This document shows positions 37,817 to 59,830 of a DNA stretch of 64,000 nucleotides, piece after piece. Source of the DNA: an uncultured Gammaproteobacteria bacterium (lineage in GTDB: Bacteria > Patescibacteriota > Patescibacteriia > Patescibacteriales > GWE2-39-37); contig CAYUCS010000001.1 of NCBI GenBank assembly GCA_964443495.1, forward strand, positions 75,542-139,541, in the 5' to 3' direction. The position numbers were made by a program, and so were the translations under genes. The notes under the pieces are model-generated. The model ran no database searches, was not told where the DNA came from, and saw only the letters and a list, made by a program, of their open reading frames with translations. Each line of letters opens with the position of its first letter. Within the stretch, counting starts at the first letter, position 1.

Positions 37817-37825
37817 GGCGGTATT

Positions 37826-38698: not shown

Positions 38699-39387
38699 TT
38701 TTTGATTAAGTCATCGATTATCCGCTGCCAGATATCAAGCGGCAGGTCGCCATCCACCTTGGTGCCGTTGATCAGCCAAGTCGGGGTGCCTTTGACGCCG
38801 ATCTTTTCGGCATACTCCAGGTTGGCCAGGATCTTGTATTGCTCGGCTTGGCTGGCCAGGCACTTGGTGAAGCCAAAGGTCTTGACGCCGACTTGTTCCG
38901 CTAATTTTACGATGTCAGAGGTGGTTGCGATTTTCCCTTGGTTCTGGAAAAGTTTGTCGTGCATCGCCCAGAATTTGCCTTGCTGTCCGGCGCACCTAGC
39001 AGCCAAAGACAGCTCTAAAGATTGTTCGCTGATGTTGGGATAGTCTCGGAAGACGACTTTGATGTCGTCCGGGTATTTGGCGCCGAGCGAGCGGATTTTG
39101 GAGAAGCTTGATTTTGAATTGGGGCAGGAGAAGTCGCTGAACTCCACGATGGTTATCTTGGGGGAGCTGGTGCCGAACCAGTAGTTGTCCTTGCCTTCAG
39201 TGTCAGCGTAGTTGCGGCCCGAGGCCACGGTTGAAAGCTGCTGGCTGGCGTAATTCTTGGCGGCGAAAAATGCGGCCGTAAAGATGGTTATGACCAGCGC
39301 AAGAAAAATCCACAATAAGATGGCCCACCAGCGCAACGGCCAGGGTTTTTTAATGATGGCTTGTGATTGGGTGTCAGGTAATGCCAT
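38695..39387 (-). CDS. DsbA-like thioredoxin-fold protein, membrane-anchored, with a CPNS (CxxS) motif
   Basis: N-terminal TM, ITIVEFSDFSCPNSK verified codon by codon, GTPTWLING near the C-terminus (DsbA-like cis-Pro region). Confidence 0.65.
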   Translation of the reverse strand: MALPDTQSQAIIKKPWPLRWWAILLWIFLALVITIFTAAFFAAKNYASQQLSTVASGRNYADTEGKDNYWFGTSSPKITIVEFSDFSCPNSKSSFSKIRSLGAKYPDDIKVVFRDYPNISEQSLELSLAARCAGQQGKFWAMHDKLFQNQGKIATTSDIVKLAEQVGVKTFGFTKCLASQAEQYKILANLEYAEKIGVKGTPTWLINGTKVDGDLPLDIWQRIIDDLIKK

Positions 39388-44562: not shown

Positions 44563-45246
44563 ATGCTTGAGGACTCTAAGGAGGTCAACAATCAAGAGTC
44601 TGGGCCGCAAGAGCCGGCGCAGGCAGCTCGTCCAAGTATCAATAAGAACCAGAAATTATTTCTGGCTGTTTTGCTATTGATCGGTTTATCAATGATCGGC
44701 CTTTGGGCGGCACAGCTGCGACAGGGGATTTACCAGCCTTTCCGTCCCAAAAATAGCGGTACTTCCGAAAATGCCCCAGCTGTCGACAATCAGCTTTCCG
44801 AGCAGGCCGACACGGACAAGGACGGACTTTTGGACGTGGATGAAACCGGGGCCTATGGAACGTCGCCATATCTTGAAGATACTGACGGTGACAATATTAA
44901 CGACGGCGCCGAGGTTAGGGCTGGCACTGACCCTAATTGCCCTGAAGGTAATAAGTGCGGCGCCCCCACGACCAGCGGCGCGGAAAATGGCACCACCTCC
45001 GCCGCCATCATCAGCGATGCGGCCACGTCTTCCCCAGCTGCAAAAACCGCTACGCCCGCATCCCAGACTGATTCATCTGCCGGCGGCCTTTCGGAGCAGG
45101 ACATGAAAAACATGCTTGAAGGCAAGATGAGCGCTAGCGCTTTGCGCCAGGCTTTGCTCAAATCAGGGGCCGACCCCAAATTGCTTGACCAGCTGAGCGA
45201 CGAGGACCTGGTGAGCAGCTATAAGAAGTCTCTCAATAGCCAATAA
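44563..45246 (+). CDS. Membrane-anchored protein with Asp-rich DxDxDG calcium-binding-type repeats
   Basis: ATG at 44563 after a TGnTATAAT promoter element. TM LFLAVLLLIGLSMIGLW. DTDKDGLLDVDETG and DTDGDNINDGAE. Confidence 0.45.
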   Translation: MLEDSKEVNNQESGPQEPAQAARPSINKNQKLFLAVLLLIGLSMIGLWAAQLRQGIYQPFRPKNSGTSENAPAVDNQLSEQADTDKDGLLDVDETGAYGTSPYLEDTDGDNINDGAEVRAGTDPNCPEGNKCGAPTTSGAENGTTSAAIISDAATSSPAAKTATPASQTDSSAGGLSEQDMKNMLEGKMSASALRQALLKSGADPKLLDQLSDEDLVSSYKKSLNSQ

Positions 45247-45269: not shown

Positions 45270-48200
45270 ATGTACAAATGGTTTAAGGCAAAATTTATAA
45301 AAGCATCAATTTCGGTGTTGGCCGTCGTTTTAATTTCCGGATCTCTTGGCCTGATGTTTGGAGTCGGTAGAGCCGATGCCGCGGGCGAGTCTTTTCCGGC
45401 AAGCATGCCTTGGGTTACTCCGGTTTCCAATCCTTTTGATATTAAAACTTCCGATCAGTCGGCTCTAAGTTCTTACGCGCAACTGTACAAAAAGCAAGAG
45501 GAGCAGAAGCAGACTTCTATTTGGGGCACTTTGAAGGATTACGCGAGCAAGCTCAAGGATTGGGCTCGGGAAGATTTGTGGAACGAGGTGGTCGTGGCTG
45601 GCGGCTCGAAAGCGCTTGGCTCCGCAGTGCGAAACGCTTTGAATACCATTGCAATGGACACCGCCACCTGGCTCGGATCCGGCGGCAATGGCCAAAAACC
45701 ATTATTTTATACCGAAGGATGGGGCGCCTATCTGACCAATGTAGCCGACAACGCAGCTGGCACTTTTGTCGAGCAGCTTGGCAAACAGAACGGTTATGCC
45801 AAGTTCAATCTCTGTAAGCCGAACTTCGCTCTGCAAATGAAGATCGGCTTGGGACTGGTGCAGTCGGTCAAACCATCCGCGCCAGCCTGTACCTTTTCTA
45901 AATTGGTCAGCAACTGGGAGAACGAACTTTCCAGCGAGGATTTCATGGACAAGATACAGTCGTCCTTCGATCCTACAAACAATGATTTCGGAGTAGCGTT
46001 TTCTTTGCAGACCGGCATGTTCCAGCAGATCAATGAAGATAAATATTCGAAATTACTGACCCGCCAAGAGGGCCAGGGGTATATCAATCAAGGAACAAGC
46101 AAGATCGGCGAATCGCTTGGTTTGCCAGCCAAATCAGAAGTCGAGCGCAAGAATTACCTTGATGCCGGCATGAAGGCCAATGCGATCACGCAGTATACCG
46201 GCTATGCGCTAGTAGATGCTGCAAATGTCTTTATTAACCAATTGGCCATAACCGCCTTCAACGAATTGATGAAAAAGCTGGGCGGCAAGAACTACTCTTC
46301 CGGCTACGGCAACTGGAACAGCCTTATCAGCAACTTCAAGGCCGGTCCGGATGCCACTATCGGCGGAGGTATCGCCGCCACGAAAAATCAGCTTCGCAAG
46401 ATCGGAGAACCTCAGTTCAATGTCCGAGGCGATTACAACATCTTGTCAGAATTAAGCTCCTGTCCCAAGCCGGACAAGGCCGGTCCGACCAATTGCGTCA
46501 TCGATGATAAATTCAAGCAGGGAATCCTGGACAAGAAAACCGTGGCCGAAGCCATCAAGCTCGGCTATCTTAACGGGGAGAAGATTGTCGGCTTCTCGAG
46601 CGATGGCGTCGAGCCGCGCTATACGGACGCTTATCCATATCGATCTCTGATAATCTTGCGCAAATTCCGCATCTTGCCCGTCGGCTGGGAAATTGCCGCC
46701 CAGTATATCCGTGACAATCTCGATCCGACAAAGCCTAATGGTGTAGGACCGAAATCCCTGGGTGATTTAGTGGCGTGCTTCGATCAGAATGACGAATATC
46801 CTGGATACTATGCTGCCTGGTGCCAAGGCCTGGTGGATCCGAATTGGCTTTTGAAATCACCATTGAATTATTGCCGTCGCGAGGGACCAGGACCGGAAAA
46901 CATCTCCGATGATGAAGCGACTCTGGTCAGGGGAGACAAGTATTGCGCCGACGAGCAGTCTTGCATCAAGGAAAAGGCGGATGGCTCTTGCGAATATTAC
47001 GGCTATTGCACCGAAGAGCGCCGCAAGTGGAAATTCAATTCCGAATCCTGCGAACCATTGTATAACACCTGCCAAACTTTCAAGAGTGAGAGCGGAGCCT
47101 CGGTTTCTTATTTGAAAAATACCCTTGATTATAGCGGATGCTCCGTGGACAATGCCGGCTGTACCGATTACTGTACAGCTTACAACTTCGCAACCGGCAA
47201 GTATGCCTGTACCGCCACTTCTACCGGCAATAAGGTCTTTTTGGATCGCGATGCCGGCAGCTGCGATCAGAAGGCCGAAGGTTGTACCTCTTTCATCAGG
47301 ACGAAAGAGGGCACGGGCGCTAACCTGCTGTTGAATTCCAGCTTTGAAGACGATTTGGCCACTGGCGCTTGGGCCGCCCTGGGTGCGACCACCTCCGATG
47401 CTTTTTCCGGCTTCAGCAGCTTACAGCTCACGCCTGGCGTATTGACAAAGAATTTTTCTGCCGGCCCGGGGTTAACTTATGTCGGCGGCGAGTATAATAT
47501 AGAAGGCGAGTCGTATACGATTTCCCTGTACTCCAAAAACTGTCCGGCTGGCAGCACGGTTTCTTTGATGGACGGCGCCAATACCGAGTCTGTTTCGATC
47601 GAGTCGGCCGGCACGTGGACATTGAATTCACTTTCCCATGTCTTCATGAGTTCCGGTCCAGCCTTTGATTTCCAATTCAACACCCCTGGCGGCTCGAGCT
47701 GCTTGATTGATGCGGTAAAGATCGAAAAGAGCATCGGCGCTACGCCGTATAGCGAGTACGGTACGACCGGCTTAGTACACGAGAAATACGCACCGAGCTA
47801 CCTTGGCTGCGATGGCGTGGCTGATCCGGCGGAGTGCAAAGATTTTGCCAGAAGCTGCAAATTCGAGGAGGTCGGTTGCGAGCTGTATACTCCGGTCAGC
47901 GGGGATATGCCCGTTCCAGGCAAAGTCAAGCCAGCAGACTACTGCGTGGCCGAATGCGTCGGCTTTGATACCTATCTGCAGTCTCAGACCACTTTCGATT
48001 CATTGCGGCCGGATTATTTCATTCCGAAGACGGCCAAGGCCTGCAGTGCTGAAACCAATGGCTGCGACCAGTTTACTAATCTGGACAAACTTGGGAGCGG
48101 TGCCGAGGCGACCGAATATTATTCATATCTGCGTCAGTGCATTACTTCCGGCGGCACGCAGTTTTATACTTGGGAAGGCTCGAACGAGACTGGCTTCCAG

Positions 48201-51200
48201 TTGAAGGTCGTATCTTTGAAGGCTGATACCGACGCTCACCCGTGGGGTCCGCTCGACCTCGATGGTAACCCGGTTACGCCGAATGTGGCTGATTACATGG
48301 GTGACCCGGCCATAACTGGCGATCGTTTGCAGGAAGTTGCCAAGTGTAATGAACGGATATACCAACTGAAGCAGACTGACCCGGGCTATAATCCTGATTG
48401 CCGCGAATATTATAATACGGCCGGTGTAAAATCCTACCATCTCTATAGCCAGACTATCAGCGAGGACGCCAATTGCCATCCTTATCGCCGCACAGAAGTC
48501 AATATCGACCCTTCCATCACAGTCGCTGGCGCGTGCGTCGGTGCTGACAGGAATTGGAACGCCGCGACTGGCGAGTGCGCGGTCTGCATCAATGGCGGCA
48601 CGTGGAACGTGCAGCAGGGCGCTTGCGTCTATCAGGCCATTCCTGGCCAGGGAACCCAGTGTTCGGCTGCCGCGAATGGCTGCCGCGAGTACACTGGCAA
48701 CACCGGCCAGAGCGTAAGGATCTTGTCAAATAGTGATTTCGAGGACAGCACATTGCAGGGTTGGACCAATTTCAATGGCGCAGCGGCACCGACGCTCAGT
48801 CCCGAGTCAGTCAACATGGGCGGCCACTCTATCTATGTCCAGACCGCTGCGAATAATCAGGGCATAGTGCTTAAAATGCCGACTTCAACCATGCAGGTTG
48901 GCGGGTCTTATGCGATAACATTGATTGCCAAGACACGGACTCCGGTCAATCTCAAGGTGCGTCTTACCAACGCGGCTGCCGCCAATGTCGATTTTGTCGG
49001 CGTCGGAGCGTTAACGGCCGATTGGCAGATGTATCGGGCTAACCTTTCTGAGATGACGGTCGTCGAGGCAGAGAACTTGATTATCGAGGCGGATGTTCCG
49101 GCGGAGTTCTTTGTTGATAACATCAAGCTCACGGAAATATCCAACCGCTTCTATTTGATCAAGAATTCTTGGAATACGCCAGAGACCTGCAATCAGGATT
49201 TGAACAAGAAGCCTTATCCTTTATATATGCTTGGTTGCAATGAGTATAAGGACAGGGATAACCTGACTCACTATTTGAGGTCGTTCTCTTATCTTTGCGG
49301 CGAAGGTTCGGTCGGTTGCGAATTGATGGTTGACATTCACAATTCGACCAACCCGCTTCAGGAGAGTTATAATGCCGTTACGGCTAGGGCAGAGGATGAC
49401 TTGACGGTCCAGGCCGACAACTATGTTTATGCGGTTTATGACAAGAAGAAGCTGTGCCAGTCTGAAGATGTCGGTTGCCAGCGCTTAGGCAAGCCTTACG
49501 ATTATTCCGGCGAACGGCTCCACTCCGACGTGTATCTTAAAAATAACCCCGATAATTATAAGAAGGCGATGTGCGACTATCCCGGCTTAAGCTGCGACGA
49601 ATATGCATCCGGCGATAGCATGACCTATTTCAAGAATCCTGGAGATCTGACTTGCGAGTGGCGCCCGGGTCCGAAAAACGTCTTTGCCTGGTACAAGAAG
49701 AAGGTGAAACGTTGCAATGCCACCGGCCCTGTTTGTTCGACTGATAAGGATTGCGTTTCGCCCCAGAAATGCGAAACCGAAACGGCTGACATATTGTGCT
49801 CAAACGATGCCGGAGTCAATCCGAAAACTTTCGGCATCGGTACCGGTTTCCGCACGGCCCAACCGACAAGGGATGCTGCCGGGGCAAATTGGGTCGGCGT
49901 CTGCCCGGCAGAAGAGTCCGGCTGTACCGAATTCATCGATCCTAAGAGCAGTTTCAACCAGAACCTGCTATTCAATAACGATTTCGCGCAGAACATCAAT
50001 CTTGGAGATGAGCCTAACCGTGACGGCTGGCCCGGAAATATTCAGGGGGTGAAGCTGGATGCCAATACATTGTATGTCCTGAGTGGCACCGGTAATGCCG
50101 GCAGCAGCGTGACGGTCGGCAACTGCACCTCGGCTATCGGCGGTTCAAACGTCAGCCTTTTGGATGCCGCAACCAACTCGTTAAATGCTCCTGCAGCAGC
50201 AGTCACTTTGACGCTCGGGGTCTCGCCGACCAAGACCAGCCTAGCTTTTTATTCTAACAATTCCATAAGATGCAATATCAGTGTCGTGCCGGCCGGTCCA
50301 TTGACTGGCTTGGATTTGGGATTGTATAAAGCCGCCGTCGATTACCAAGTGGACAAGAATCTCGACAGCACCAGCTGCAACGGCCTGGTTGACCAGAGTC
50401 AGGGTTGCGTATTGTTCAATAAGCGGGGGCAGGATGGAGCATCGGTCACGAGCTTGAATTACGATGTCGATACGAGCAGCAGCAGCCCGTCCGTGAGCGT
50501 CGGAATCGAGCGAGATTCCAATATCCTGCTCAAGGTTGCCCCAGACCGCATTTGCGACAAATGGCTTTCTTGCAGATCATCGGTTACCCTGAAAGATCAG
50601 GACGGCAACGACAAGAATGTCTGTCTCGATATCGCACTATGCAACCAGTTCGGCTTCGAAGGCGGCTGCAACGGCACCATCAGCAAGGATAGAAATAATC
50701 AGACCTACAATTATCCGAATCTTGGCGGCGGCCTCTTGAGCGCCAACCAGGTCGGCAACATTAGTGGCTATGCCAAGGTAGGCAAGAATCAGGCCGGTCA
50801 GACCGATGCCCAGATCCCATTCGGTTCGATGCTCCAGTACGGCGCTTCGGCCAACGTTTACAATGGCAACATGGAGCTTGCTGGCGAAAACGGTTATCCG
50901 ATCGGTTGGAAATATCATCTTTCTAACGATGTGTGGGACGAGAAGTCTTTCAAGGTAATTAACACGGTTGCTGCCGTCCAGAATGAAGGCGTCGGCGGCG
51001 CGCCGGAAGGCAGCGGCATCCTGAAGCTCGGCGTCAGGCACGTAATCACTTCAAATTCATTTACCGTCAAGGGTGGCGAGTTTTATATTCTTCAGGCGCA
51101 GGTGAACACCGCCAGGCTGAAGGGCGATGACAATGCCGACCGTGTGCACATGAGGTTTATTTGCATCGATAACGCTATGGCAGAAATCCAGATGGACGAT

Positions 51201-53540
51201 AAGCAAATCTTGCCAGGCGAACTGTGGCATCAGGCCATGTCACCAAGAGTGCAGGCCCCGGCCAATTGTTCAAGGGCAGCAGTCAGATTCGAGGCTGATC
51301 CGGGCATGGAAGGTAATTTCTTCGTTGATGACGTCAAAGTCAAGCCGGTACTAGAAAACCGCACGAACGAATATGTCAGCCAGTCTTGCCGGCTTTACCC
51401 GAAGTCGGAAGCCAAGTCTTGCCAGTATCAGGACAACAGCGGGGTCAGGTACAACGGTTGGTATGGATATTGTCTGGAGAAGGATCGTTATCCGGGCTCC
51501 AACGATGCTTGCTTGCTCTGGTGGCCAGTTGACAAGATAAATGGCGACCCGTTCAGCAAAGAAAATACTTTCAAGGGTTATGATGGCAAGTTCCCGGCTT
51601 ATTATTGCGCCGAGCTGGATGGCAATTATCGTTACGTCGAGAAGCGCTCTGCTGGAATGGTTCTGCATCAGACTGCTTCTAGGGCCTGTTTCTGGGGCAA
51701 CTTCTTTAATGCGGTACTTCTTGGCGCGGTCACTGGGTGGGGTATGGTGCCAGGTTTCGACATTTTGGGCTATAATGGCACTTCTGCTACTGGCGGGCCG
51801 TATTGTCCGACCGGGGCAGGCTATCTGACTCAGACCGCCATGGTGGATTGCAGCTGTGGCTTCTTTGATACGGATTGCACTCAGCATTATTACACTTATT
51901 GTTTGCCAGCTTCTCGAAAATACATAGTTGGTAATGCGGGTGAGACCAACAATGAGTGGGGCGGCGGCGCGTGGTATCAGTTCAATGGCAGCTTGCTCAA
52001 GTGGCAATCTTTGGCTGGGTCCGTCACCACCGAAATCGATAATAGTGTCAGGATTCTTGATATGAGTGCAGCTGGAGCTGGCAATGACGGCGTCTTAGTT
52101 GATCCTGATAAGTATGACTTCCTCCCATGCAAAAAATTCTATCAGACGGTCAGTGAAACGGGTGAGAATAAAGTCTGGCTAGGGCGCTTGGGCGAGGATT
52201 CGAGATATTCTCCGCCGGGCCTGGCCTATCAGTACAAGCAGGATGATGCGCCATACGGATCAGCCGTGCCGCCGACTCCCTTGGATAATCCTTACGATTG
52301 GGATGGCCACACCAAGCCTGGCCGACAGCCGATTTCCTTCAAGCTGCCGGAAAGCCAGCAGGTCCGGGCCGGCTCACCTTACGGCTGTACGGGTGCAAAA
52401 TGCTCCCAGGTCGGCCATTGTGCCGACAGTGGCAGAACCTGCGTGTCCTTGAATTCCGTTACTGAATCGGTTGATTTATGCGCTACGCTAGGTGCTGCTG
52501 CTACGGTTTCTGGCGGTGCCTATAATACGCCCAACCGCTGCTACGCGTCTGAAGTAGCACAAGTCGTGCCGACCAATGTCATGTCCACCCAGTGCACCCG
52601 CATTGCTACCGGCCTTCCTTGCACGCCACAGAGCACAGCTGCATGTAATTGCATTTCGCAACCTACGGGCTTAGCGGCTCCGGCTCCGGCCAACGCGACA
52701 ATTTGCCGCAACGCTGCAAATGCCTATTGCGACCCGGGCTTGTGCAGCGCTCCTGTTGGAGCGGCCTCGTGCAACACCGTCTCGATCGGCGTAACCAATA
52801 TTACTACCGCGGCTGCTGGCGGGCCTTCAGATAATTTGGCCATGGTCTATCCGTCGACGGCATCTTCGACCAATCCAAACGCCAGAACCTGGACACCGCC
52901 GGAATATGCTTGCGAATACGGCGAAGAATGCGTCATTACGCCACAGCCGGATTGGCCAGTCGCCTCGCCGCAGGTGGCGCGTACGGCGGCTCAGACATAC
53001 CCCGCTTTGGAAAACCTCAAGCGCATGTTCGCTAAGAATTACGGCGTCTGGATCTGGAATCCGGCAACCAAGCACTACGAGAAGGATTTCAATCCGGTAG
53101 AGAATTGGGACATCAACAACGACCCGGCTGCCGGCTTCTGCGGCTCTCCGAGACCGGCCTGGAATCCGGGCATTTCGAACGATTATTGCCGCATCCGACC
53201 GGTGGTCGATAACGTGTTAGTCGACAAGAACGTGGTGCGCAAGGGCGATAACGTAATTCTAACCTTTAACTCGCATGTCGATGTCAATCAGTTGCCGGTA
53301 GTATACTATAAGATCGTTTGGGGCGATGGCAAGCCTGATACGGTCGTGACAGGAGAATTCGGTGATCGTCCTAACGCCAACAACCCTCATGTGGTTACCC
53401 ACCGTTATGAGTATAATGATATCCAGGGATGCGCGGCCAACCCTTGCGCCCCCATACAGCCTACCGTAGTCTTGATGGATAACTGGGGAACTGAGAGCGT
53501 AGTTGTGCCGGGTCCGGCGATATCGGTATTCTCGAATTAA
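45270..53540 (+). CDS. Giant (2756 aa) secreted cysteine-rich surface protein with repeated CBM-like (N-x-x-F-E ... G-W) modules
   Basis: Continuous ORF. N-terminal signal/TM (ISVLAVVLISGSLGLMFGVGRADAAG). Many C...C pairs. LLNSSFEDDLATGAW, ILSNSDFEDSTLQGW, LLFNNDFAQNI...GW, and NVYNGNMELAGENGYPIGW motifs. Confidence 0.75.
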   Translation: MYKWFKAKFIKASISVLAVVLISGSLGLMFGVGRADAAGESFPASMPWVTPVSNPFDIKTSDQSALSSYAQLYKKQEEQKQTSIWGTLKDYASKLKDWAREDLWNEVVVAGGSKALGSAVRNALNTIAMDTATWLGSGGNGQKPLFYTEGWGAYLTNVADNAAGTFVEQLGKQNGYAKFNLCKPNFALQMKIGLGLVQSVKPSAPACTFSKLVSNWENELSSEDFMDKIQSSFDPTNNDFGVAFSLQTGMFQQINEDKYSKLLTRQEGQGYINQGTSKIGESLGLPAKSEVERKNYLDAGMKANAITQYTGYALVDAANVFINQLAITAFNELMKKLGGKNYSSGYGNWNSLISNFKAGPDATIGGGIAATKNQLRKIGEPQFNVRGDYNILSELSSCPKPDKAGPTNCVIDDKFKQGILDKKTVAEAIKLGYLNGEKIVGFSSDGVEPRYTDAYPYRSLIILRKFRILPVGWEIAAQYIRDNLDPTKPNGVGPKSLGDLVACFDQNDEYPGYYAAWCQGLVDPNWLLKSPLNYCRREGPGPENISDDEATLVRGDKYCADEQSCIKEKADGSCEYYGYCTEERRKWKFNSESCEPLYNTCQTFKSESGASVSYLKNTLDYSGCSVDNAGCTDYCTAYNFATGKYACTATSTGNKVFLDRDAGSCDQKAEGCTSFIRTKEGTGANLLLNSSFEDDLATGAWAALGATTSDAFSGFSSLQLTPGVLTKNFSAGPGLTYVGGEYNIEGESYTISLYSKNCPAGSTVSLMDGANTESVSIESAGTWTLNSLSHVFMSSGPAFDFQFNTPGGSSCLIDAVKIEKSIGATPYSEYGTTGLVHEKYAPSYLGCDGVADPAECKDFARSCKFEEVGCELYTPVSGDMPVPGKVKPADYCVAECVGFDTYLQSQTTFDSLRPDYFIPKTAKACSAETNGCDQFTNLDKLGSGAEATEYYSYLRQCITSGGTQFYTWEGSNETGFQLKVVSLKADTDAHPWGPLDLDGNPVTPNVADYMGDPAITGDRLQEVAKCNERIYQLKQTDPGYNPDCREYYNTAGVKSYHLYSQTISEDANCHPYRRTEVNIDPSITVAGACVGADRNWNAATGECAVCINGGTWNVQQGACVYQAIPGQGTQCSAAANGCREYTGNTGQSVRILSNSDFEDSTLQGWTNFNGAAAPTLSPESVNMGGHSIYVQTAANNQGIVLKMPTSTMQVGGSYAITLIAKTRTPVNLKVRLTNAAAANVDFVGVGALTADWQMYRANLSEMTVVEAENLIIEADVPAEFFVDNIKLTEISNRFYLIKNSWNTPETCNQDLNKKPYPLYMLGCNEYKDRDNLTHYLRSFSYLCGEGSVGCELMVDIHNSTNPLQESYNAVTARAEDDLTVQADNYVYAVYDKKKLCQSEDVGCQRLGKPYDYSGERLHSDVYLKNNPDNYKKAMCDYPGLSCDEYASGDSMTYFKNPGDLTCEWRPGPKNVFAWYKKKVKRCNATGPVCSTDKDCVSPQKCETETADILCSNDAGVNPKTFGIGTGFRTAQPTRDAAGANWVGVCPAEESGCTEFIDPKSSFNQNLLFNNDFAQNINLGDEPNRDGWPGNIQGVKLDANTLYVLSGTGNAGSSVTVGNCTSAIGGSNVSLLDAATNSLNAPAAAVTLTLGVSPTKTSLAFYSNNSIRCNISVVPAGPLTGLDLGLYKAAVDYQVDKNLDSTSCNGLVDQSQGCVLFNKRGQDGASVTSLNYDVDTSSSSPSVSVGIERDSNILLKVAPDRICDKWLSCRSSVTLKDQDGNDKNVCLDIALCNQFGFEGGCNGTISKDRNNQTYNYPNLGGGLLSANQVGNISGYAKVGKNQAGQTDAQIPFGSMLQYGASANVYNGNMELAGENGYPIGWKYHLSNDVWDEKSFKVINTVAAVQNEGVGGAPEGSGILKLGVRHVITSNSFTVKGGEFYILQAQVNTARLKGDDNADRVHMRFICIDNAMAEIQMDDKQILPGELWHQAMSPRVQAPANCSRAAVRFEADPGMEGNFFVDDVKVKPVLENRTNEYVSQSCRLYPKSEAKSCQYQDNSGVRYNGWYGYCLEKDRYPGSNDACLLWWPVDKINGDPFSKENTFKGYDGKFPAYYCAELDGNYRYVEKRSAGMVLHQTASRACFWGNFFNAVLLGAVTGWGMVPGFDILGYNGTSATGGPYCPTGAGYLTQTAMVDCSCGFFDTDCTQHYYTYCLPASRKYIVGNAGETNNEWGGGAWYQFNGSLLKWQSLAGSVTTEIDNSVRILDMSAAGAGNDGVLVDPDKYDFLPCKKFYQTVSETGENKVWLGRLGEDSRYSPPGLAYQYKQDDAPYGSAVPPTPLDNPYDWDGHTKPGRQPISFKLPESQQVRAGSPYGCTGAKCSQVGHCADSGRTCVSLNSVTESVDLCATLGAAATVSGGAYNTPNRCYASEVAQVVPTNVMSTQCTRIATGLPCTPQSTAACNCISQPTGLAAPAPANATICRNAANAYCDPGLCSAPVGAASCNTVSIGVTNITTAAAGGPSDNLAMVYPSTASSTNPNARTWTPPEYACEYGEECVITPQPDWPVASPQVARTAAQTYPALENLKRMFAKNYGVWIWNPATKHYEKDFNPVENWDINNDPAAGFCGSPRPAWNPGISNDYCRIRPVVDNVLVDKNVVRKGDNVILTFNSHVDVNQLPVVYYKIVWGDGKPDTVVTGEFGDRPNANNPHVVTHRYEYNDIQGCAANPCAPIQPTVVLMDNWGTESVVVPGPAISVFSN

Positions 53541-53541
53541 G

Positions 53542-54141
53542 ATGATTGAAATCAACCAACAACAAGCTGCGCTGGATTTGCGTCTGGCGCAAGCGGCCGA
53601 ACGCAATGGCATCGAGTCCGAAGAGCCAGTTGTTGAGCAGCCGGAAATGTCGTTGCGCCAACGGCTAGCGGCAAAAAGAAAGGCAGAAAAGTATAAGTAC
53701 GCTGCGGATGAGAGGCTTGATCGGGCAAGGATTAGGACAGAAGAACGATTTATAAAGGCTTCCTCAGCCAGAGCGTTACGGGCAGCATGGCTGAGCGAAG
53801 GGACGATAGTCGGTTTTTTGTTCGGATTGGCTTATATTAATCTCCATGTATTCCTAAGGTTAGTCTTCGGTCCGGATATGTTTTGCAAGCTAGGTGAGGA
53901 GTGGTCGTTAGGCAAAGCTGGGTCAGTCGGAAAGACGGCAAGCATAGGTGCTTTTTGGGCAGAGGTCCTGCAACTAATCTTCTTTGACTTATTGATATTT
54001 GGTGCAGTCGCTTATTCCATTTTTTGGCTTTATTTGCTGGCGGAGTTGATAAATATACCTTCGTGGGAGACGGTTAAGGAAGTGGGTATACTTTTCTTTG
54101 AGCCTTTATGGGAATTGATAAAAACTAACATGACGTCATGA
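53542..54141 (+). CDS. Membrane protein (hypothetical), first gene after the giant ORF
   Basis: ATG 2 nt after the giant gene's stop. Polar N-terminal half and 3-4 TM in the C-terminal half. Stop overlaps the next start (ATGA). Confidence 0.5.
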   Translation: MIEINQQQAALDLRLAQAAERNGIESEEPVVEQPEMSLRQRLAAKRKAEKYKYAADERLDRARIRTEERFIKASSARALRAAWLSEGTIVGFLFGLAYINLHVFLRLVFGPDMFCKLGEEWSLGKAGSVGKTASIGAFWAEVLQLIFFDLLIFGAVAYSIFWLYLLAELINIPSWETVKEVGILFFEPLWELIKTNMTS

Positions 54142-56783
54142 GGAAAATTTCTTCTTTTATGAAGGGTAATGGCAGGACATTTTTTTACGCGCTAGTTATA
54201 GTTGCGTCTTTACTTGTGGCGAATTCGTCATATGCTGCCTATGGTGAAGAAACAATCAAGACAGTATTTGGTGGCGTCGGCGTTGCAGTAACGACGGTCG
54301 TCGGTATTTTTGCTTACATGATTACTACTGTATTTGGTCTTGCTCTAACGGTGATGGCCGCGTTGTTGGTTCAAGTTGCCCAGTATAGCGACATTATCAA
54401 TGTGCCGGCAGTCAGAGAAGGGTGGATAATTGTCAGAGACCTCTGCAATATGTTCTTTGTTTTGATTTTCTTGATAATCGCATTTGCCACGATTTTGCGG
54501 ATGGAGAATTACAGTGCCAAGCGTTTGCTGCCCAAGTTGATTATCATGGCCATTTTGATTAATTTTTCCAAAACCATCTTTGGCTTATTGATTGATTTTT
54601 CGCAGATTATCATGCTGACCTTCGTTGTTGCCTTCAAGAATGGAGGTGGCTGGTTTATGGATGCATTTAGAGTGCAGGATTGGTATAAGTTCAATCTTAA
54701 AGATAATTCAGGCGCAGCAACGCAATGGGGAACGGTTATTGCCATGATTTTGTCTGTTTTTGCATCAGCTGTTGCCTTAGTAATGGTAATCGTGATTTTA
54801 GCAGTTTTGGTAATCCGCATAGTGATGCTTTGGATTTATACGATTTTGTCGCCCTTCGTCTTTTTGGGCTGGGCCTTCCCCCCAGTCGGTAAATATACGG
54901 AACAAATTTGGACCGATTTTATAAAACAACTGATAGTTGGCCCGGTCTTGGCCTTTTTCCTGTGGCTAGCATTGGCATTTGCTTCGGGCAGCGCGATGAC
55001 AATGGGACAACCGTTTAACGATAAGGAGGTGTGTGCAGGCATTAGCGGTTTGTTTTGTACTGGTCAGTTGCAAAAATTCGTCATTATGCTCGGAATGATG
55101 CTTGGCGGTTTGATGACTGCTCAGTCGGTTGGTGGAGCCGGTGCTAAGGCGGCAAATTGGGGCATGAACAAGATCAAGACTGGCCAGGTCTGGGCCGGCA
55201 ATAAGTTTAATCGCGGACTCCAGGATGTCACGCGTATCAGTGCCGCCAAGGAGTACTTGTCACAGCGAAGCGCGGCCAAAGATGGGGCCCGTGCTGACCG
55301 TATCCAGGGGCAGGTTGCCTGGATGCAAGGCAAGACTAGTGCAATACAGAGCACTTTTGTTGCCGAACCGAGCAAATTCGTAAGCAAACATTGGGGCAAG
55401 TTCGGTAGCAATGAAGCGGCTAGAATCAGGAAGGAGGTTGTCGGTGACAGGGATAAGCTTAAGTCAGTCCAGGAAGAGAATGGGTATTATTATAGGGAAA
55501 ACATCAAGGATAAGCTTGGTAAGAGCAAGGTCGTTGTTGGAAGCAAGGTTTACGATAAGACATCGTTCGGCTGGGCCGATACGCTTACTGGTAGATCATA
55601 CACCGACGATAAGATGAAGGATATTTTGAAGAATGTCGAAGTCGCTAAGCTTAAAAAGACTATCACCAACAAAGAGGCTGCGGCTAGCAAGCACGAAGCC
55701 AGGCAAAAGAAGGCTGATAAATACCTCAAGACAGGGTTGGCCGTCGGCGGAGGCGCTTTGGCTGCCGCGACCGGGGGTGCAAGTCTAGCGGCGTTATATT
55801 CCGGTTTGACGGCATCTTTGGGTGGAATCACAGTAAGCGGCGCCGCAGTGGGTGCAGCCTTAGGTGGCGCGATTGGTGCAGGAGCCGGCGCCGGAGCAGG
55901 TGCAGGCACGATTGATAAGCTGAAAAAATTGAAAGATGCCGGAAGTGTCGATGGCAATTCCTTGTCAAAATATAGGAACGAGCAAGTCACTAAAGCCCAG
56001 GACAAGATGAAAGATGATAGTGATGGTGAGGTTTTGGCGACACTGGACAATTCGAGCAAGAGTCCGTTCGTGCGTATGGCTGCCTTGATGGAATCAATGA
56101 ACCGCCATCTTGTTGATGCGCAACAGATAAATCGTTATCGTAACGATTTTCAGGCACAGGGCGGTCTTCTTGGCGGAGCCAAGCCCGGCTCGACTGGAGA
56201 TATTAAGCCTTGGAATGACAAAAAGCTGGAGAGCCGCTTCAGCGCGAATATAGACAAGAATAAGTTTTTGGCCGCAACTAAGGATTTCGAACTTGCCAAA
56301 GGTACCGATGTTGCAGCCAAGGAGGCCCAGGATCGAATCAGTGGCAGCCTGGCTAGCGGAGCCATATCAATGAAGGACCTGGATGTCGAGACTTTGACCA
56401 ACTCCATCAATTCCTTGGCTTTGAACATCAAAAATTCCAAGTTCATTAAGGAGTGGAAGGAAAATCTTAATCCTAATCAGCAAGGTGCCGTCCTTAGGGC
56501 TTTAGAAAACTCCAAGCTTTATGATGCTAAGACTAAGCTGGCTTTCATTTCCAATATTGAAAAAGCGTTTGGCAAGGGCAAAGCGATGCCCGGTACCGAT
56601 AAAGAAAAGTTCATCAAGGGCCTGTCAATCGATGATATTAGTGAGATATTGACAAAGGGCAAGGCTGAGCAAGTCCAGGCCTTGAAGGAGGCTATTGCGG
56701 CCGATGATGCTGTATTGCCTGATGCCCTTCGAAATTCAAGCTCACCAAAGGCGGCTGGTATTAAAAAAGATCTGGGAATATAA
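54138..56783 (+). CDS. VirB6/TrbL-like polytopic membrane protein with a long hydrophilic C-terminal extension
   Basis: Signal-like N-terminus, about 6 further TM helices in the first 340 aa, then 540 aa hydrophilic with a (GA)n stretch. Confidence 0.45.
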   Translation: MRKISSFMKGNGRTFFYALVIVASLLVANSSYAAYGEETIKTVFGGVGVAVTTVVGIFAYMITTVFGLALTVMAALLVQVAQYSDIINVPAVREGWIIVRDLCNMFFVLIFLIIAFATILRMENYSAKRLLPKLIIMAILINFSKTIFGLLIDFSQIIMLTFVVAFKNGGGWFMDAFRVQDWYKFNLKDNSGAATQWGTVIAMILSVFASAVALVMVIVILAVLVIRIVMLWIYTILSPFVFLGWAFPPVGKYTEQIWTDFIKQLIVGPVLAFFLWLALAFASGSAMTMGQPFNDKEVCAGISGLFCTGQLQKFVIMLGMMLGGLMTAQSVGGAGAKAANWGMNKIKTGQVWAGNKFNRGLQDVTRISAAKEYLSQRSAAKDGARADRIQGQVAWMQGKTSAIQSTFVAEPSKFVSKHWGKFGSNEAARIRKEVVGDRDKLKSVQEENGYYYRENIKDKLGKSKVVVGSKVYDKTSFGWADTLTGRSYTDDKMKDILKNVEVAKLKKTITNKEAAASKHEARQKKADKYLKTGLAVGGGALAAATGGASLAALYSGLTASLGGITVSGAAVGAALGGAIGAGAGAGAGAGTIDKLKKLKDAGSVDGNSLSKYRNEQVTKAQDKMKDDSDGEVLATLDNSSKSPFVRMAALMESMNRHLVDAQQINRYRNDFQAQGGLLGGAKPGSTGDIKPWNDKKLESRFSANIDKNKFLAATKDFELAKGTDVAAKEAQDRISGSLASGAISMKDLDVETLTNSINSLALNIKNSKFIKEWKENLNPNQQGAVLRALENSKLYDAKTKLAFISNIEKAFGKGKAMPGTDKEKFIKGLSIDDISEILTKGKAEQVQALKEAIAADDAVLPDALRNSSSPKAAGIKKDLGI

Positions 56784-56793: not shown

Positions 56794-57927
56794 ATGTCTA
56801 ATATAGCTAATCAATTTTTGACAAAGTTAGAAAGTCTTCCGCCCGAGGCTCAGTTTTATTTTGATTCGGAGTTTTTGGGCCTTAAAATAAAGGACTTGTC
56901 TTCCAGATACGGACTTGCTGATACGGATATAAACGAACTGGTCTATTTGGCAGTTGCGGGTGACTTCAACTTTGCCAGCATTGATAACCATGAAGTTTTC
57001 TTAGGAATCAAGGATGATGTTTTGAAAAAGCAGCTTATAAGCGATTTTTGGGGCGCAATCATTTTGCCCGTTGCGGGATATGTCGGCATTCCTGCTCTTG
57101 CGGGAGCAATCAAGTCCAGGTTGGGCGATTGGCAAAGATACACCATTGACATCAATGAGCTAGAAGAAGAATTGAAAGACGAGCACTCGAGAGTTATGGA
57201 AGAGTTGGCAATCATTAAGGATGAAATAACGGACATTAATGAGGAGGTGAACGTCGCGCGGAGCCTTTTTGCCAATGGCTTGTTGTATGTCCTGCAAAAC
57301 AATGATGATAATTCTATTTTTGATCTTAACGCCGGCTTAGTTTATTTGTTAAACAAGGAACCGTCCTTGAAAGATGAGCTAGCCGAGTTCATTATTGAAA
57401 ACCAAGAAAAGCTCTCAGAAAAAACCATACTTATCGATGGTAAGCAGGAGCAACCGACAGTGGCCAATTGGCTGAAAGATTTTATGCAGAAGCAGGGCGG
57501 AGGGAATATTAATAATTTGGCAGTGACCCAATATCTTACCAATTCTGAGAACGCGAAGATTCTTGATCGTGAACAAAAGACATTGTTGGGTGATGTTTTG
57601 GAGCTGTATAGAAATATCAAGTTTTTTCCTGAAAGCATGAAAGATGTTCCGCCAGAGCAGTGGTTTATTGTTCCTGTTGAGCCCTTATTTTTGGAGTCTG
57701 TCAGAAAGAAGGCCGGCACAAACAAGATAGATGCCAGTAAACCATTACTAGTCAAGTCTCCGCAAAATGTCCGGTCGGAAAAGGTCGATGTAGAGCCGAT
57801 GCCACAACCGATTGTTAATCCAACTGAAGCAAGAAGAAAAGAATTGCAATTGATGGCCGAAACCTTTCCTGTCGGCAGCCTTGAGCGCAGGGCTTTGGAG
57901 CAGGAAATCGCAAGTCTGAATAAATAA
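56794..57927 (+). CDS. hypothetical protein (N-terminal domain paralogous to the next gene)
   Basis: ATG at 56794 (MSNIANQFLTKLESLPPEAQ). Confidence 0.5.
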   Translation: MSNIANQFLTKLESLPPEAQFYFDSEFLGLKIKDLSSRYGLADTDINELVYLAVAGDFNFASIDNHEVFLGIKDDVLKKQLISDFWGAIILPVAGYVGIPALAGAIKSRLGDWQRYTIDINELEEELKDEHSRVMEELAIIKDEITDINEEVNVARSLFANGLLYVLQNNDDNSIFDLNAGLVYLLNKEPSLKDELAEFIIENQEKLSEKTILIDGKQEQPTVANWLKDFMQKQGGGNINNLAVTQYLTNSENAKILDREQKTLLGDVLELYRNIKFFPESMKDVPPEQWFIVPVEPLFLESVRKKAGTNKIDASKPLLVKSPQNVRSEKVDVEPMPQPIVNPTEARRKELQLMAETFPVGSLERRALEQEIASLNK

Positions 57928-59395: not shown

Positions 59396-59830
59396 ATGCA
59401 GCAATTCACAGTACCGCAGTTTATCGATGTCGAAGACAAGATTATCGGGCCGATTACCACGCGCCAATTCGTCATAATTTTGGCTTCATTCATGATAATC
59501 GCCCTGTGCTACCGCCTTTTTGATTTCTCAGCCTTTATCTTTTTTTCGGTCATCATTTTCGCGGTAATGGTGGTATTGGCATTCGTCAAGATTAACGGAC
59601 GGCCGTTTCATTTTTTTCTACTGAACATCATCCAGACCTTCAAGCGCCCCAAGACCAGGATCTGGCTCAAGGAAGATGATGTCGAGTCGTCGGTCGAGGC
59701 GGAGGATCCTTCACTGAAAAGGTTTGAGCCGGTACCGGTCAAGGAATATACTTTGGGCGGCTCAAGGCTTGATGAGATGTCGTTGATCGTCGATACCCAA
59801 GGTGCATATCGCGGAGAAATCAGAAAATAA
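59396..59830 (+). CDS. PrgI/VirB3-like small membrane protein
   Basis: MQQFTVPQFIDVEDKIIGPITTRQF followed by two TM helices. This matches the PrgI-family N-terminus as recalled from memory. Confidence 0.45.
   Translation: MQQFTVPQFIDVEDKIIGPITTRQFVIILASFMIIALCYRLFDFSAFIFFSVIIFAVMVVLAFVKINGRPFHFFLLNIIQTFKRPKTRIWLKEDDVESSVEAEDPSLKRFEPVPVKEYTLGGSRLDEMSLIVDTQGAYRGEIRK

What the first reader, a model, noticed from the sequence alone, without database searches (positions are those of the whole stretch)
45270..53540. 2756-aa secreted cysteine-rich giant protein with repeated N-x-x-F-E...G-W (CBM4/9-like) modules
A single uninterrupted 8.3-kb ORF with an N-terminal signal/TM and hundreds of Cys in C...C spacing. 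At least four modules begin with a Leu-Leu/Asn-Ser-x-Phe-Glu motif and contain a conserved G-W. That pattern is typical of carbohydrate-binding/galactose-binding-like beta-sandwiches. Giant extracellular proteins in reduced-genome episymbionts are candidates for host-cell attachment. This gene has the highest GC in the window, which argues against recent acquisition.
Basis: partly seen in the sequence, partly recalled or inferred. Interest (0 to 1): 0.6.

Follow-up and report, generated by a model that had tools for sequence, protein, structure and literature searches.

The report
Giant disulfide-rich lectin protein heading T4SS operon
A real 2756-residue secreted, disulfide-stapled protein carrying sugar-binding-type modules turns out to be the first large gene of a conserved type IV secretion operon in ultra-small (Patescibacteria) bacteria, making it the best candidate yet for the missing host-contact part of that machine.

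Summary
The ORF (45270-53540, +) is real and intact. It is co-linear with more than 120 full-length homologues and has a Sec-type signal peptide and 98 cysteines, not hundreds. The cysteines are almost certainly all disulfide-paired: the count is even in 105 of 117 homologues. Three of the four proposed modules are CBM4_9/CBM22-like beta-sandwiches, supported by Pfam, PDB profile, profile-profile comparison and an AlphaFold/Foldseek result. The fourth module is unverified. The "highest GC" claim is wrong, because that region is rpoB/rpoC.

The gene sits at the head of a tightly packed operon: TSP3-like anchor, giant, small 2-TM protein, VirB6-like, two unknowns, PrgI/VirB3, TrsD/TraC-like, VirB4. 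The giant-VirB6 link holds in 47 of 51 genome loci and, reciprocally, in 25 of 29 metagenome loci.

The cysteine-rich scaffold and a family-specific N-terminal domain with no fold match are conserved. The lectin modules are variable and are sometimes swapped for Laminin_G or MAM-like domains.

My best reading (0.55) is an extracellular host-glycan-recognition component of the Patescibacterial T4SS. A 2025 survey of these systems reported no adhesin. Function is inferred, not shown.

The parts
44563..45246 (+). TSP3-repeat, single-pass membrane protein (about 227 aa from ATG 44563). It is the first gene of the unit and a candidate membrane tether for the anchorless giant.
   Evidence: Pfam TSP3_bac E=6e-6. 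One TM segment. A homologue lies directly upstream of the giant in 68 of 72 loci. A promoter-like TTGTTG..TGTTATAAT and a hairpin with a T-run after KsgA lie just upstream. The tether role is inference.
45270..53540 (+). Giant secreted cysteine-rich protein, 2756 aa plus stop codon.
   Evidence: ORF. More than 120 full-length homologues. 340 species-level genomes carry a relative.
45270..45380 (+). Predicted Sec signal peptide (aa 1-37, cleavage after A-D-A).
   Evidence: Basic n-region, hydrophobic core and AxA site. The same feature is present in 109 of 117 homologues. This is a heuristic; no SignalP-type tool was run.
45555..46769 (+). Family-specific N-terminal domain (aa 96-500). It has a helical part followed by a compact alpha/beta subdomain that contains the invariant YPYRS-IILRKFRI-PVGWE motif. 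The confidently modelled subdomain (aa 389-529) runs about 30 residues past this boundary into the next part.
   Evidence: 45% mean identity across the family. 2443 cluster representatives at E<=1e-3, always at the N-terminus of giants. AF2 pLDDT is 90-97 for aa 389-529 and 50-78 for the helical part. No Pfam, PDB-sequence, PDB-fold or BFVD match.
46770..47321 (+). Cys-rich scaffold segment 1 (aa 501-684).
   Evidence: Most conserved part of the protein at 58% mean identity. Its cysteines are invariant. C-x5/6-C hairpin motifs.
47322..47765 (+). Module M1 (aa 685-832), a CBM4_9/CBM22-like beta-sandwich.
   Evidence: AF2 pLDDT about 76-90. Foldseek PDB top hits are CBM22, CBM4, CBM16, CBM61 and the CDTb receptor-binding domain. 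hhalign to M2 gives 97.8%. Replaced by Laminin_G_3 in P0029.
47766..48716 (+). Cys-rich scaffold segment 2 (aa 833-1149).
   Evidence: Invariant cysteines and 47% mean identity. No Pfam or PDB match.
48717..49145 (+). Module M2 (aa 1150-1292), a CBM_4_9 domain.
   Evidence: Pfam PF02018 E=2.5e-7, 31.6 bits against a cutoff of 25.9. PDB profile hit to Xyn10C CBM22 at 8.5e-7.
49146..49946 (+). Cys-rich scaffold segment 3 (aa 1293-1559).
   Evidence: Invariant cysteines and 45% mean identity.
49947..50369 (+). Module M3 (aa 1560-1700). It has the same leading motif (C-x6-C-x-E-[FY]...N-L-[IL]-F-N-x-x-F...DGW), but its fold is unverified.
   Evidence: Motif. No significant profile match to M1, M2 or M4. 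No PDB or Pfam match.
50370..50849 (+). Cys-rich scaffold segment 4 (aa 1701-1860).
   Evidence: Invariant cysteines and 39% mean identity.
50850..51365 (+). Module M4 (aa 1861-2032), a CBM4_9-like / MAM-like beta-sandwich.
   Evidence: hhalign to M1 gives 93.5% and to M2 93.4%. The equivalent slot in homologues hits MAM (1.9e-7) and CBM_4_9_1/BppA domain 1 (9.9e-6, 26.3 bits, just under the 27-bit Pfam cut-off).
51366..51605 (+). Cys-rich scaffold segment 5 (aa 2033-2112).
   Evidence: 53% mean identity and invariant cysteines.
51606..53024 (+). Hypervariable, indel-rich C-terminal region (aa 2113-2585), with one conserved island at aa 2286-2350.
   Evidence: 6-9% mean identity and 19-38% occupancy outside the island. 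In homologues this region holds Cys-rich inserts of up to about 450 aa.
53025..53537 (+). Conserved C-terminal domain (aa 2586-2756) with the motif WGDG...H-x-Y...DNWG. It is Ig/PKD-like by eye only.
   Evidence: Conserved motif. No Pfam hit. Only a weak match to designed Ig domains, E=0.003.
53542..54141 (+). Small 2-TM protein (d1). Its start lies 1 nt after the giant's stop codon.
   Evidence: TM prediction. A homologue was detected downstream of the giant in 24 of 58 loci, which is a lower bound because the protein is short and divergent.
54138..56783 (+). VirB6/TrbL-like polytopic membrane protein (881 aa) with a long hydrophilic C-terminal half.
   Evidence: Several predicted TM segments. 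Homologues carry Pfam TrbL_3. Found downstream of the giant in 47 of 51 loci. The window protein itself has no direct Pfam hit.
56794..57927 (+). Single-pass membrane protein of unknown function (d3).
   Evidence: Syntenic in 32 of 48 loci.
57935..59392 (+). Soluble protein of unknown function (d4).
   Evidence: Syntenic in 27 of 44 loci.
59396..59830 (+). PrgI / VirB3-like protein.
   Evidence: Pfam PrgI E=2.9e-9.
59838..60515 (+). TraC-like / TrsD-like protein (VirB4 N-terminal-like).
   Evidence: Weak Pfam TraC_F_IV hit. Homologues carry PF26593 TraC-like.
60518..62437 (+). VirB4-family T4SS ATPase.
   Evidence: Pfam P-loop_TraG 2.7e-30, AAA_10 and CagE_TrbE_VirB.
62465..63055 (+). N-terminally anchored protein (d8), the last conserved gene of the cluster.
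   Evidence: Syntenic in several loci.
36839..39387 (-). Nearby accessory unit: DsbA (38695-39387), T4SS pilin (37826-38698) and a T4SS pilin-NlpC/P60 fusion (36839-37816).
   Evidence: Pfam hits. DsbA lies within 10 kb of the giant in 35 of 83 genome loci and the pilins in 27 of 83.

Best explanation
The gene encodes a Sec-exported extracellular protein that has no membrane anchor of its own. About 48 disulfides, probably made by the neighbouring DsbA, staple it into a rigid and conserved cysteine-rich scaffold.

The scaffold displays three or four variable lectin-type beta-sandwich cassettes. These are CBM4_9/CBM22-like and are exchanged for Laminin_G or MAM-like domains in relatives.

A conserved, family-specific N-terminal domain most likely docks the protein to the cell-surface face of the type IV secretion apparatus encoded immediately downstream. 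Candidate docking partners are the VirB6-like protein, the small 2-TM protein, and the TSP3-repeat single-pass protein encoded immediately upstream.

In this reading the giant is the host-recognition and attachment arm of the chromosomal, relaxase-less T4SS of ABY1/Paceibacteria-type Patescibacteria. The lectin cassettes bind host envelope glycans and hold the secretion channel against the host cell.

Shown: the gene is real and conserved, it has secretion features, its cysteines are paired, the modules are CBM-like, the scaffold is conserved while the modules vary, and it is in operon-level linkage with VirB6, VirB3 and VirB4.

Inferred: docking to the T4SS, glycan binding, and a role in host contact.
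For: (1) Operon anatomy. The genes run TSP3-like, giant, d1, VirB6-like, d3, d4, PrgI, TraC-like, VirB4, d8, all on one strand. Gaps run from -4 to +27 nt, and no terminator-like site lies between the giant and d1.

(2) Synteny.
- The same gene order occurs in distant homologue loci of 36-40% identity.
- A VirB6-like gene lies downstream of the giant in 47 of 51 genome loci, and a TSP3-like gene upstream in 68 of 72.
- The giant-d1-VirB6 block stays together in six loci where the LeuRS/KsgA flank is lost.
- Reciprocally, starting from VirB6-like genes in metagenomes, the giant lies upstream in 25 of 29 loci that have at least 5 kb of upstream sequence.

(3) Export and oxidative folding.
- A signal-peptide-like N-terminus is present in 109 of 117 homologues.
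- The cysteine count is even in 105 of 117 homologues, p=1e-19. Variable cysteines appear and disappear in pairs, r=0.97-1.0.
- About 63 cysteines are conserved in at least 90% of homologues.
- DsbA lies nearby here and in 35 of 83 loci.

(4) Lectin modules. Support comes from Pfam CBM_4_9, the PDB CBM22 profile hit, the AF2 and Foldseek result and inter-module homology.

(5) Conserved scaffold with variable cassettes. Modules average 27-29% identity, against 39-58% for scaffold segments and 45% for the N-domain. The M1 slot is Laminin_G_3 in P0029, and the M4 slot is MAM or BppA-domain-like in P0006 and P0018.

(6) Literature. The Patescibacterial T4SS is essential for epibiotic growth in Saccharibacteria (PMC10633639). 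It lacks a relaxase, and a phylum-wide survey detected no adhesins such as PrgB (PMC12102498). ABY1 T4SS loci commonly include comF, as this window does.
Against: - All functional links rest on gene neighbourhood. No interaction, localisation or binding data exist.
- The housekeeping genes LeuRS and KsgA are also syntenic, so part of the conservation reflects shared ancestry rather than co-function.
- About 14% of VirB6-anchored loci have no giant upstream (L103, L129, L135, L147). VirB4 lies within 10 kb of the giant in only 15 of 32 loci, though this count is limited by flank length.
- The N-domain has no similarity to VirB5, PrgB or any other T4SS component.
- The AF2 models are of low confidence outside M1 and aa 389-529.
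- CBM-like folds also occur in enzymes and toxins.
Confidence: 0.55

Rival explanations
1. The protein is a generic cell-surface adhesin or coat (S-layer-like) protein. It mediates attachment or envelope integrity independently of the T4SS, and the neighbourhood is inherited synteny only.
For: LeuRS and KsgA are conserved next to it almost as often as the T4SS genes are. Giant-less T4SS loci exist. Large cysteine-rich extracellular proteins are common in CPR genomes and have been interpreted as attachment proteins (PMC4736985; PMC8080830).
Against: The giant stays with d1 and VirB6 when the housekeeping flank is lost. The gene spacing is tight and operon-like. The reciprocal linkage holds in 25 of 29 loci. 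The protein has no anchor of its own, so it needs a partner to stay on the cell.
Confidence: 0.22
2. The protein is a secreted glycan- or cell-wall-degrading enzyme. The uncharacterised N-terminal domain would be a new catalytic domain, functionally analogous to VirB1, that breaches host or own cell wall, and the CBM modules would target it to substrate.
For: CBM4_9 and CBM22 modules are classically appended to glycoside hydrolases. VirB1 homologues are scarce near virB4 in most Patescibacterial classes (PMC12102498). The N-domain subdomain is highly conserved, with invariant E474 and an R/K cluster.
Against: No hydrolase, lyase or peptidase family was detected by Pfam, NCBIfam, PDB sequence or fold search. 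An NlpC/P60 hydrolase is already present, fused to a T4SS pilin nearby. Very few acidic residues are invariant in the N-domain.
Confidence: 0.1
3. The protein is a secreted toxin or effector, or a pore-forming delivery component, directed at the host cell and released by or alongside the T4SS.
For: The Foldseek hits for M1 include receptor-binding domains of the binary toxins CDTb and Ib and of Cry1Ac. The protein lacks an anchor. It is linked to a T4SS.
Against: It carries a Sec signal peptide, so it does not need the T4SS for export in a monoderm. No toxin, enzymatic or pore-forming domain was detected. The toxin hits are to their CBM-like receptor-binding domains only.
Confidence: 0.05
4. 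The ORF is an artefact, that is, an assembly chimera or fused genes.
For: None was found beyond the unusual length.
Against: The protein is co-linear at 100% coverage with independent assemblies at 96%, 83% and 68% identity, and more than 120 homologues of 2.3-3.5 kaa exist. 340 species genomes carry a relative. Median ORF length in the loci is 2714 aa.
Confidence: 0.01

Closest known systems
CBM4_9 / CBM22 carbohydrate-binding modules (Pfam PF02018; e.g. Paenibacillus barcinonensis Xyn10C CBM22, PDB 4XUP)
   Same: M2 passes the Pfam gathering score. M1 is modelled as the same beta-sandwich, and M4 is related to both. The N-terminal strand motif (N-x-x-F-E..GW) and the C-terminal strand ([FY]-[VI]-D-[DN]-[IV]-x-[LV]) are shared.
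   Different: The modules are not attached to any recognisable glycoside hydrolase. Instead they are inserted between long disulfide-rich segments of a 2756-aa protein. Sugar binding was not tested.
Surface adhesins of Gram-positive conjugative T4SSs (PrgB/aggregation substance of pCF10, MPF-FATA class)
   Same: Both are large, Sec-exported surface proteins encoded within a monoderm-type T4SS locus containing PrgI/VirB3, VirB4 and VirB6-like genes. Both have a presumed role in cell-cell contact.
   Different: There is no sequence or domain similarity and no LPXTG sortase signal. The giant is cysteine-rich where PrgB is not, and it has a different domain set. The associated T4SS lacks a relaxase and is chromosomal.
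VirB5-type T4SS tip/stalk adhesins (e.g. TraC of pKM101, TrwJ of R388)
   Same: Both are secreted, have a helical N-terminal region, and are encoded just upstream of virB6. This would fit a protein that sits on VirB6 and contacts the target cell.
   Different: VirB5 is about 220 aa. No Pfam or fold similarity was detected, and the helical part of the model is of low confidence. This is an analogy only.
Large cysteine-rich extracellular proteins of CPR bacteria (Peregrinibacteria, Anantharaman et al. 2016, PMC4736985)
   Same: Both are large, carry a signal peptide, are very cysteine-rich, and are proposed to mediate attachment in reduced-genome CPR bacteria.
   Different: Those proteins were described as weakly similar to Myxococcus cysteine-rich repeats or pappalysin and were not linked to a T4SS. 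NCBIfam, which includes the TIGRFAM cysteine-rich repeat models, gives no hit here.
Phage receptor-binding proteins with swappable CBM-like heads (e.g. lactococcal phage Tuc2009 BppA; Pfam CBM_4_9_1)
   Same: The M4 slot of homologues gives weak, sub-threshold hits to BppA domain 1 (best 26.3 bits against a 27-bit cut-off). Both follow the logic of a conserved scaffold with exchangeable lectin cassettes that set host range.
   Different: The giant is a cellular protein in a chromosomal operon, not a virion component, and its scaffold is unrelated.

Membership tests
CBM_4_9 (PF02018) carbohydrate-binding module | Sequence match to the family HMM above the curated gathering score | tested here: met
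   M2 (aa 1151-1257) scores 31.6 bits against a cutoff of 25.9, E=2.5e-7. A PDB profile hit to CBM22 of Xyn10C gives 8.5e-7.
CBM_4_9 (PF02018) carbohydrate-binding module | Beta-sandwich (jelly-roll) fold | tested here: met
   In the AF2 model, M1 is all-beta with pLDDT about 76-90. Foldseek PDB top hits are CBM22, CBM4, CBM16 and CBM61, with E=1e-5 to 1e-4 and target-normalised TM-scores of 0.52-0.68. M2 and M4 were not modelled.
CBM_4_9 (PF02018) carbohydrate-binding module | All four proposed modules belong to the family | tested here: inconclusive
   M1, M2 and M4 are mutually related at 93-98% hhalign probability. M3 matches only in the first 14-32 columns and has no Pfam or PDB hit.
CBM_4_9 (PF02018) carbohydrate-binding module | Binds carbohydrate | not testable with these tools
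   This needs glycan arrays or binding assays with the isolated modules.
Type IV secretion system component (operon member) | Encoded in a conserved gene cluster with VirB4, VirB3/PrgI and VirB6 | tested here: met
   The cluster is present in the window and in L001 and L002. VirB6-like is downstream in 47 of 51 loci, PrgI in 21 of 40 and VirB4 in 15 of 32; these are flank-limited lower bounds. The reciprocal test gives 25 of 29.
Type IV secretion system component (operon member) | Homology to a known T4SS subunit family (VirB1-11, PrgA/B/C, TcpC and similar) | tested here: not met
   No such Pfam or NCBIfam hit at E<=1. No PDB sequence or fold match for the N-domain.
Type IV secretion system component (operon member) | Physical association with, or functional requirement for, the T4SS | not testable with these tools
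   This needs genetics, pull-downs or cryo-ET.
PrgB-like LPXTG-anchored conjugation adhesin | C-terminal LPXTG sortase signal with TM anchor | tested here: not met
   No LPXTG and no C-terminal hydrophobic segment in the window protein, and no C-terminal hydrophobic segment in any of the 117 homologues (LPXTG was checked only on the ~25 printed).
Myxococcus-type cysteine-rich repeat proteins (TIGR02232-like) | Match to the repeat HMM | tested here: not met
   The NCBIfam scan returned 0 families at E<=1.
PKD / Ig-like domain (C-terminal 130 aa) | Match to PKD or another Ig-like Pfam family | tested here: not met
   None of 10 family members gives such a Pfam hit at E<=1. There is only a weak match to designed Ig domains, E=0.003. 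The fold was not modelled.
Disulfide-bonded extracellular protein | Cysteines occur in pairs, with a signal peptide and an oxidoreductase available | tested here: met
   The cysteine count is even in 105 of 117 homologues, p=1e-19, and variable cysteines co-occur in pairs. Signal peptide features are present. DsbA is at 38695-39387. The actual disulfide connectivity was not determined.

The most novel reading that the evidence does not exclude
This family is the previously unrecognised extracellular host-contact organelle of the Patescibacterial type IV secretion system. It would be a roughly 300-kDa disulfide-stapled stalk that docks through a novel-fold N-terminal domain onto the VirB6-like channel protein. 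Its exchangeable lectin cassettes would determine which host cell the episymbiont can plug into. That would make host range readable from sequence in thousands of uncultured ABY1 and Paceibacteria genomes.
Probability: 0.35. Interest if true: 0.8.

Novelty: new variant of a known kind. Interest (0 to 1): 0.66.

Why it matters
The T4SS of Patescibacteria is essential for the epibiotic lifestyle in the one system where it has been tested. Its function and its way of contacting the host are unknown, and the phylum-wide survey found no adhesin.

This family gives a concrete, testable candidate for the missing host-recognition part. It is large: at least 1144 clusters at 50% identity with E<=1e-30, and at least 340 species genomes. 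It is conserved, secreted and lectin-bearing, and it is physically linked to VirB6, VirB3 and VirB4.

The division into a conserved scaffold and variable cassettes suggests where host specificity is encoded. The N-terminal domain, which is confidently modelled over aa 389-529 but matched no fold in the two libraries that could be searched (PDB and BFVD), is a target for structural work.

If the T4SS link is only inherited synteny, the finding reduces to one more CPR surface adhesin.

Tried and rejected
- NCBIfam scan of the whole protein returned nothing.
- A PDB profile search of the full-length alignment hit only the CBM module.
- PDB profile searches of M3, the C-terminal domain and the N-domain gave nothing significant.
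- Pfam scans of M3 and of C-terminal domain family members returned nothing, so the PKD idea is not supported by sequence.
- The AF2 model of aa 36-1150 had mean pLDDT 53.7. Only M1 and a few short stretches were usable, so the scaffold fold and disulfide map could not be read.
- The AF2 model of the N-domain with a deeper alignment was only partly confident. Foldseek against PDB and BFVD gave no match at E<=0.001.
- Profile-profile comparison of the cysteine-rich segments showed only short, weak C-x6-C motif similarity, at most 59% probability, so they are not a clean tandem repeat.
- The promoter and terminator scan was at chance level overall.
- Literature searches found no paper describing this family or its T4SS linkage. 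The library is incomplete, so this is absence of evidence only.
Full report
**1. The observation**

The window has a single ORF at 45270..53540 on the + strand, encoding 2756 aa. It is not an assembly artefact. A database search returned more than 120 full-length relatives of 2.0-3.5 kaa. These include independent assemblies at 96%, 83% and 68% identity with 100% query coverage. A pattern scan of one genome per species found relatives in 340 genomes.

The protein has 98 cysteines (3.56%), not hundreds. The gene is 0.50-0.54 GC. The GC maximum of the window is at 30-36 kb (0.55-0.57) and encodes rpoB and rpoC. The "highest GC" statement is therefore wrong.

**2. Export and oxidative folding**

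- *Signal peptide.* The N-terminus (MYKWFKAKFIK, then a hydrophobic core, then RADA|AG) looks like a Sec signal peptide. The same arrangement occurs in 109 of 117 homologues that start with Met, usually with an AxA-type site.
- *No anchor.* None of the 117 homologues has a C-terminal hydrophobic segment, and no LPXTG was seen in the ~25 that were checked for it. No dedicated predictor was available, so this is a heuristic.
- *Conserved cysteines.* In a 121-sequence alignment, about 63 cysteines are conserved in at least 90% of sequences, although overall identity is only about 40%.
- *Even cysteine count.* The count in the mature part is even in 105 of 117 homologues (binomial p=1e-19).
- *Paired gain and loss.* The few variable cysteines are gained and lost in pairs: 635/647 with r=0.97, and 758/811 with r=1.0.

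Essentially all cysteines are therefore disulfide-paired, giving about 48 disulfides here. A DsbA gene lies at 38695-39387 on the - strand. DsbA is found within 10 kb of the giant in 35 of 83 genome loci.

**3. Domain anatomy**

*M2.* Pfam gives one hit above threshold, CBM_4_9 at aa 1151-1257. A profile of the family searched against PDB sequences hits only CBM22, CBM4 and CBM16-type modules, again at M2.

*Relationship between modules.* Profile-profile comparison shows M1, M2 and M4 are homologous, at 97.8%, 93.5% and 93.4% probability. M3 matches only in its leading motif. M3 has no PDB or Pfam match.

*M1.* An AlphaFold2 model of aa 36-1150 was poor overall (mean pLDDT 53.7). M1 was modelled as a beta-sandwich with pLDDT about 76-90. 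Its Foldseek PDB hits are CBM22, CBM4, CBM16, CBM61 and the CBM-like receptor-binding domains of binary toxins.

*Linker motif.* M1, M2 and M3 are each preceded by the same short motif, C-x6-C-x-[ES]-[FY].

*Scaffold.* The segments between modules are cysteine-rich. They have no database match and are not a clean repeat.

*Conservation pattern.* Mean identity to 116 homologues is:

| Region | Mean identity |
|---|---|
| N-domain | 45% |
| Scaffold segments | 39-58% |
| Modules M1-M4 | 27-29% |
| C-terminal hypervariable region | 6-9% |

The C-terminal hypervariable region carries large Cys-rich indels in relatives. Cassettes are also exchanged. The M1 slot is Laminin_G_3 in P0029. The M4 slot matches MAM or BppA domain 1 in P0006 and P0018.

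*C-terminal domain.* The last 130 aa or so carry a conserved WGDG..HxY..DNWG motif that looks PKD/Ig-like, but no Pfam family matches.

**4. The N-terminal domain**

Residues 96 to about 530 are family-specific. A profile search of 1.84 billion cluster representatives found 2443 proteins at E<=1e-3 and 1144 at E<=1e-30. In the 150 best hits the domain is always at the N-terminus of giants or of their fragments.

**5. Genomic context, which is the main new result**

Gene order downstream of the giant, all on the same strand, with gaps from -4 to +27 nt:

| Gene | Coordinates |
|---|---|
| Small 2-TM protein (d1) | 53542-54141 |
| 881-aa polytopic protein (VirB6-like) | 54138-56783 |
| Unknown (d3) | 56794-57927 |
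| Unknown (d4) | 57935-59392 |
| PrgI/VirB3 (Pfam 2.9e-9) | 59396-59830 |
| TraC-like/TrsD-like | 59838-60515 |
| VirB4 ATPase (P-loop_TraG 2.7e-30) | 60518-62437 |
| Anchored protein (d8) | 62465-63055 |
| ComF-like gene | 63057-63779 |

Immediately upstream (44563-45246) is a single-pass membrane protein with a TSP3 calcium-binding repeat.

The same order appears in loci of homologues with only 36-40% identity. There the polytopic protein carries Pfam TrbL_3, which is VirB6-like.

Counts over 81 non-redundant genome loci, as flank-limited lower bounds:

| Neighbour | Loci with it |
|---|---|
| TSP3-like gene upstream | 68 of 72 |
| VirB6-like downstream | 47 of 51 |
| d3 | 32 of 48 |
| PrgI | 21 of 40 |
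| VirB4 within 10 kb | 15 of 32 |

LeuRS and KsgA are also syntenic, so part of this is shared ancestry. However, in six loci that have lost that flank, the giant-d1-VirB6 block persists.

I also ran the test in the other direction. Starting from an alignment of VirB6-like proteins in an independent metagenome collection, the giant lies upstream in 25 of 29 loci with at least 5 kb of upstream sequence. Four loci have the T4SS genes without a giant.

A divergent unit at 36839-39387 encodes DsbA, a T4SS pilin and a T4SS pilin-NlpC/P60 fusion.

**6. Literature**

- The Patescibacterial T4SS is a distinct clade related to monoderm MPF-FATA systems. It is usually chromosomal and lacks a relaxase.
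- The survey that established this states that no adhesins such as PrgB were detected, and it does not mention a giant protein (PMC12102498).
- That survey notes comF in ABY1 T4SS loci, as seen here.
- In Southlakia epibionticum the T4SS is essential for epibiotic growth and its role is unknown (PMC10633639, PMC11665869).
- Large cysteine-rich extracellular proteins have been noted in other CPR lineages, without a T4SS link (PMC4736985).
- My searches found no description of this family. The library is incomplete.

**7. Interpretation**

*Best explanation (0.55).* The protein is a Sec-exported, DsbA-oxidised, rigid extracellular scaffold that displays variable lectin cassettes. Its conserved N-domain, and perhaps the TSP3-like anchor, hold it at the T4SS. 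It would serve as the host-glycan recognition and attachment arm of that machine.

- Shown: the gene is real, it is conserved, it has export features, its cysteines are paired, the modules are CBM-like, the scaffold is conserved while the cassettes vary, and it is in operon-level linkage with the T4SS genes.
- Inferred: docking, glycan binding and host contact.

*Rivals.*
- An independent surface adhesin or coat protein (0.22).
- An enzyme whose N-domain is a new catalytic domain (0.10).
- A toxin or effector (0.05).
- An artefact (0.01).

**8. Verdict**

The finding is more interesting than stated because of the T4SS linkage and the size of the family. I rate it as a new variant of a known kind, namely a T4SS-associated surface adhesin. 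It has a new scaffold and a new N-terminal domain. Interest 0.66.

Noticed in passing
window 36839-39387 (- strand): A three-gene unit encodes DsbA (38695-39387), a protein with a T4SS_pilin domain (37826-38698), and a second T4SS_pilin domain fused to an NlpC/P60 cell-wall hydrolase (36839-37816). A VirB2-like pilin fused to a peptidoglycan hydrolase is unusual. It could stand in for the missing VirB1.
   Followed up: partly
window 45270-45570 (giant aa 1-100): Against the 96%-identical relative P0001, 46 of the 104 amino-acid differences fall in the first 100 residues (signal peptide plus the segment after it). Ten more fall in aa 1151-1250 (M2). The remaining ~2,550 residues outside these two stretches are about 98% identical. 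This looks like a local hypervariable or recombined N-terminal segment.
   Followed up: partly
window 54138-56783: The VirB6-like protein has its TM segments in the first 300 aa or so, followed by about 580 aa of hydrophilic, Gly-rich and poorly conserved sequence. This is an 'extended VirB6' architecture. The window copy itself gets no Pfam hit, whereas homologues hit TrbL_3.
   Followed up: partly
window 42117-43079 (-) and 43115-43579 (+): Two further secreted or membrane proteins lie between LeuRS and KsgA. One is a 320-aa protein with a signal peptide and weak, sub-threshold TSP3_bac and DUF4864 Pfam hits. The other is a 154-aa protein with 8 cysteines. Both are syntenic with the giant cluster in many loci.
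   Followed up: no
L103, L129, L135, L147 (metagenome loci): These T4SS clusters have a d2-type VirB6-like gene but no giant upstream. In L135 an AbiE toxin-antitoxin gene and small unknown ORFs sit between KsgA and d1. In L147 the ATP synthase genes precede the cluster. The giant may be elsewhere in those genomes or absent.
   Followed up: partly
window 6408-7439 (+): A 343-aa protein has weak thioredoxin-like/GILT hits. It is a second candidate thiol-disulfide oxidoreductase in the window besides DsbA.
   Followed up: no
window 63057-63779 (+): A ComF-like phosphoribosyltransferase with a double zinc ribbon sits directly after the T4SS cluster. This matches the published remark that ABY1-class T4SS loci commonly include comF.
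   Followed up: no
Genome contigs record titles (L013, L017, L024 and others): Many contigs that carry this Patescibacteria-specific gene cluster are deposited as 'uncultured Gammaproteobacteria bacterium' or 'Tangfeifania sp.' TPA bins. One fragment is labelled Omnitrophota. These are probably mislabelled or mis-binned records.
   Followed up: no
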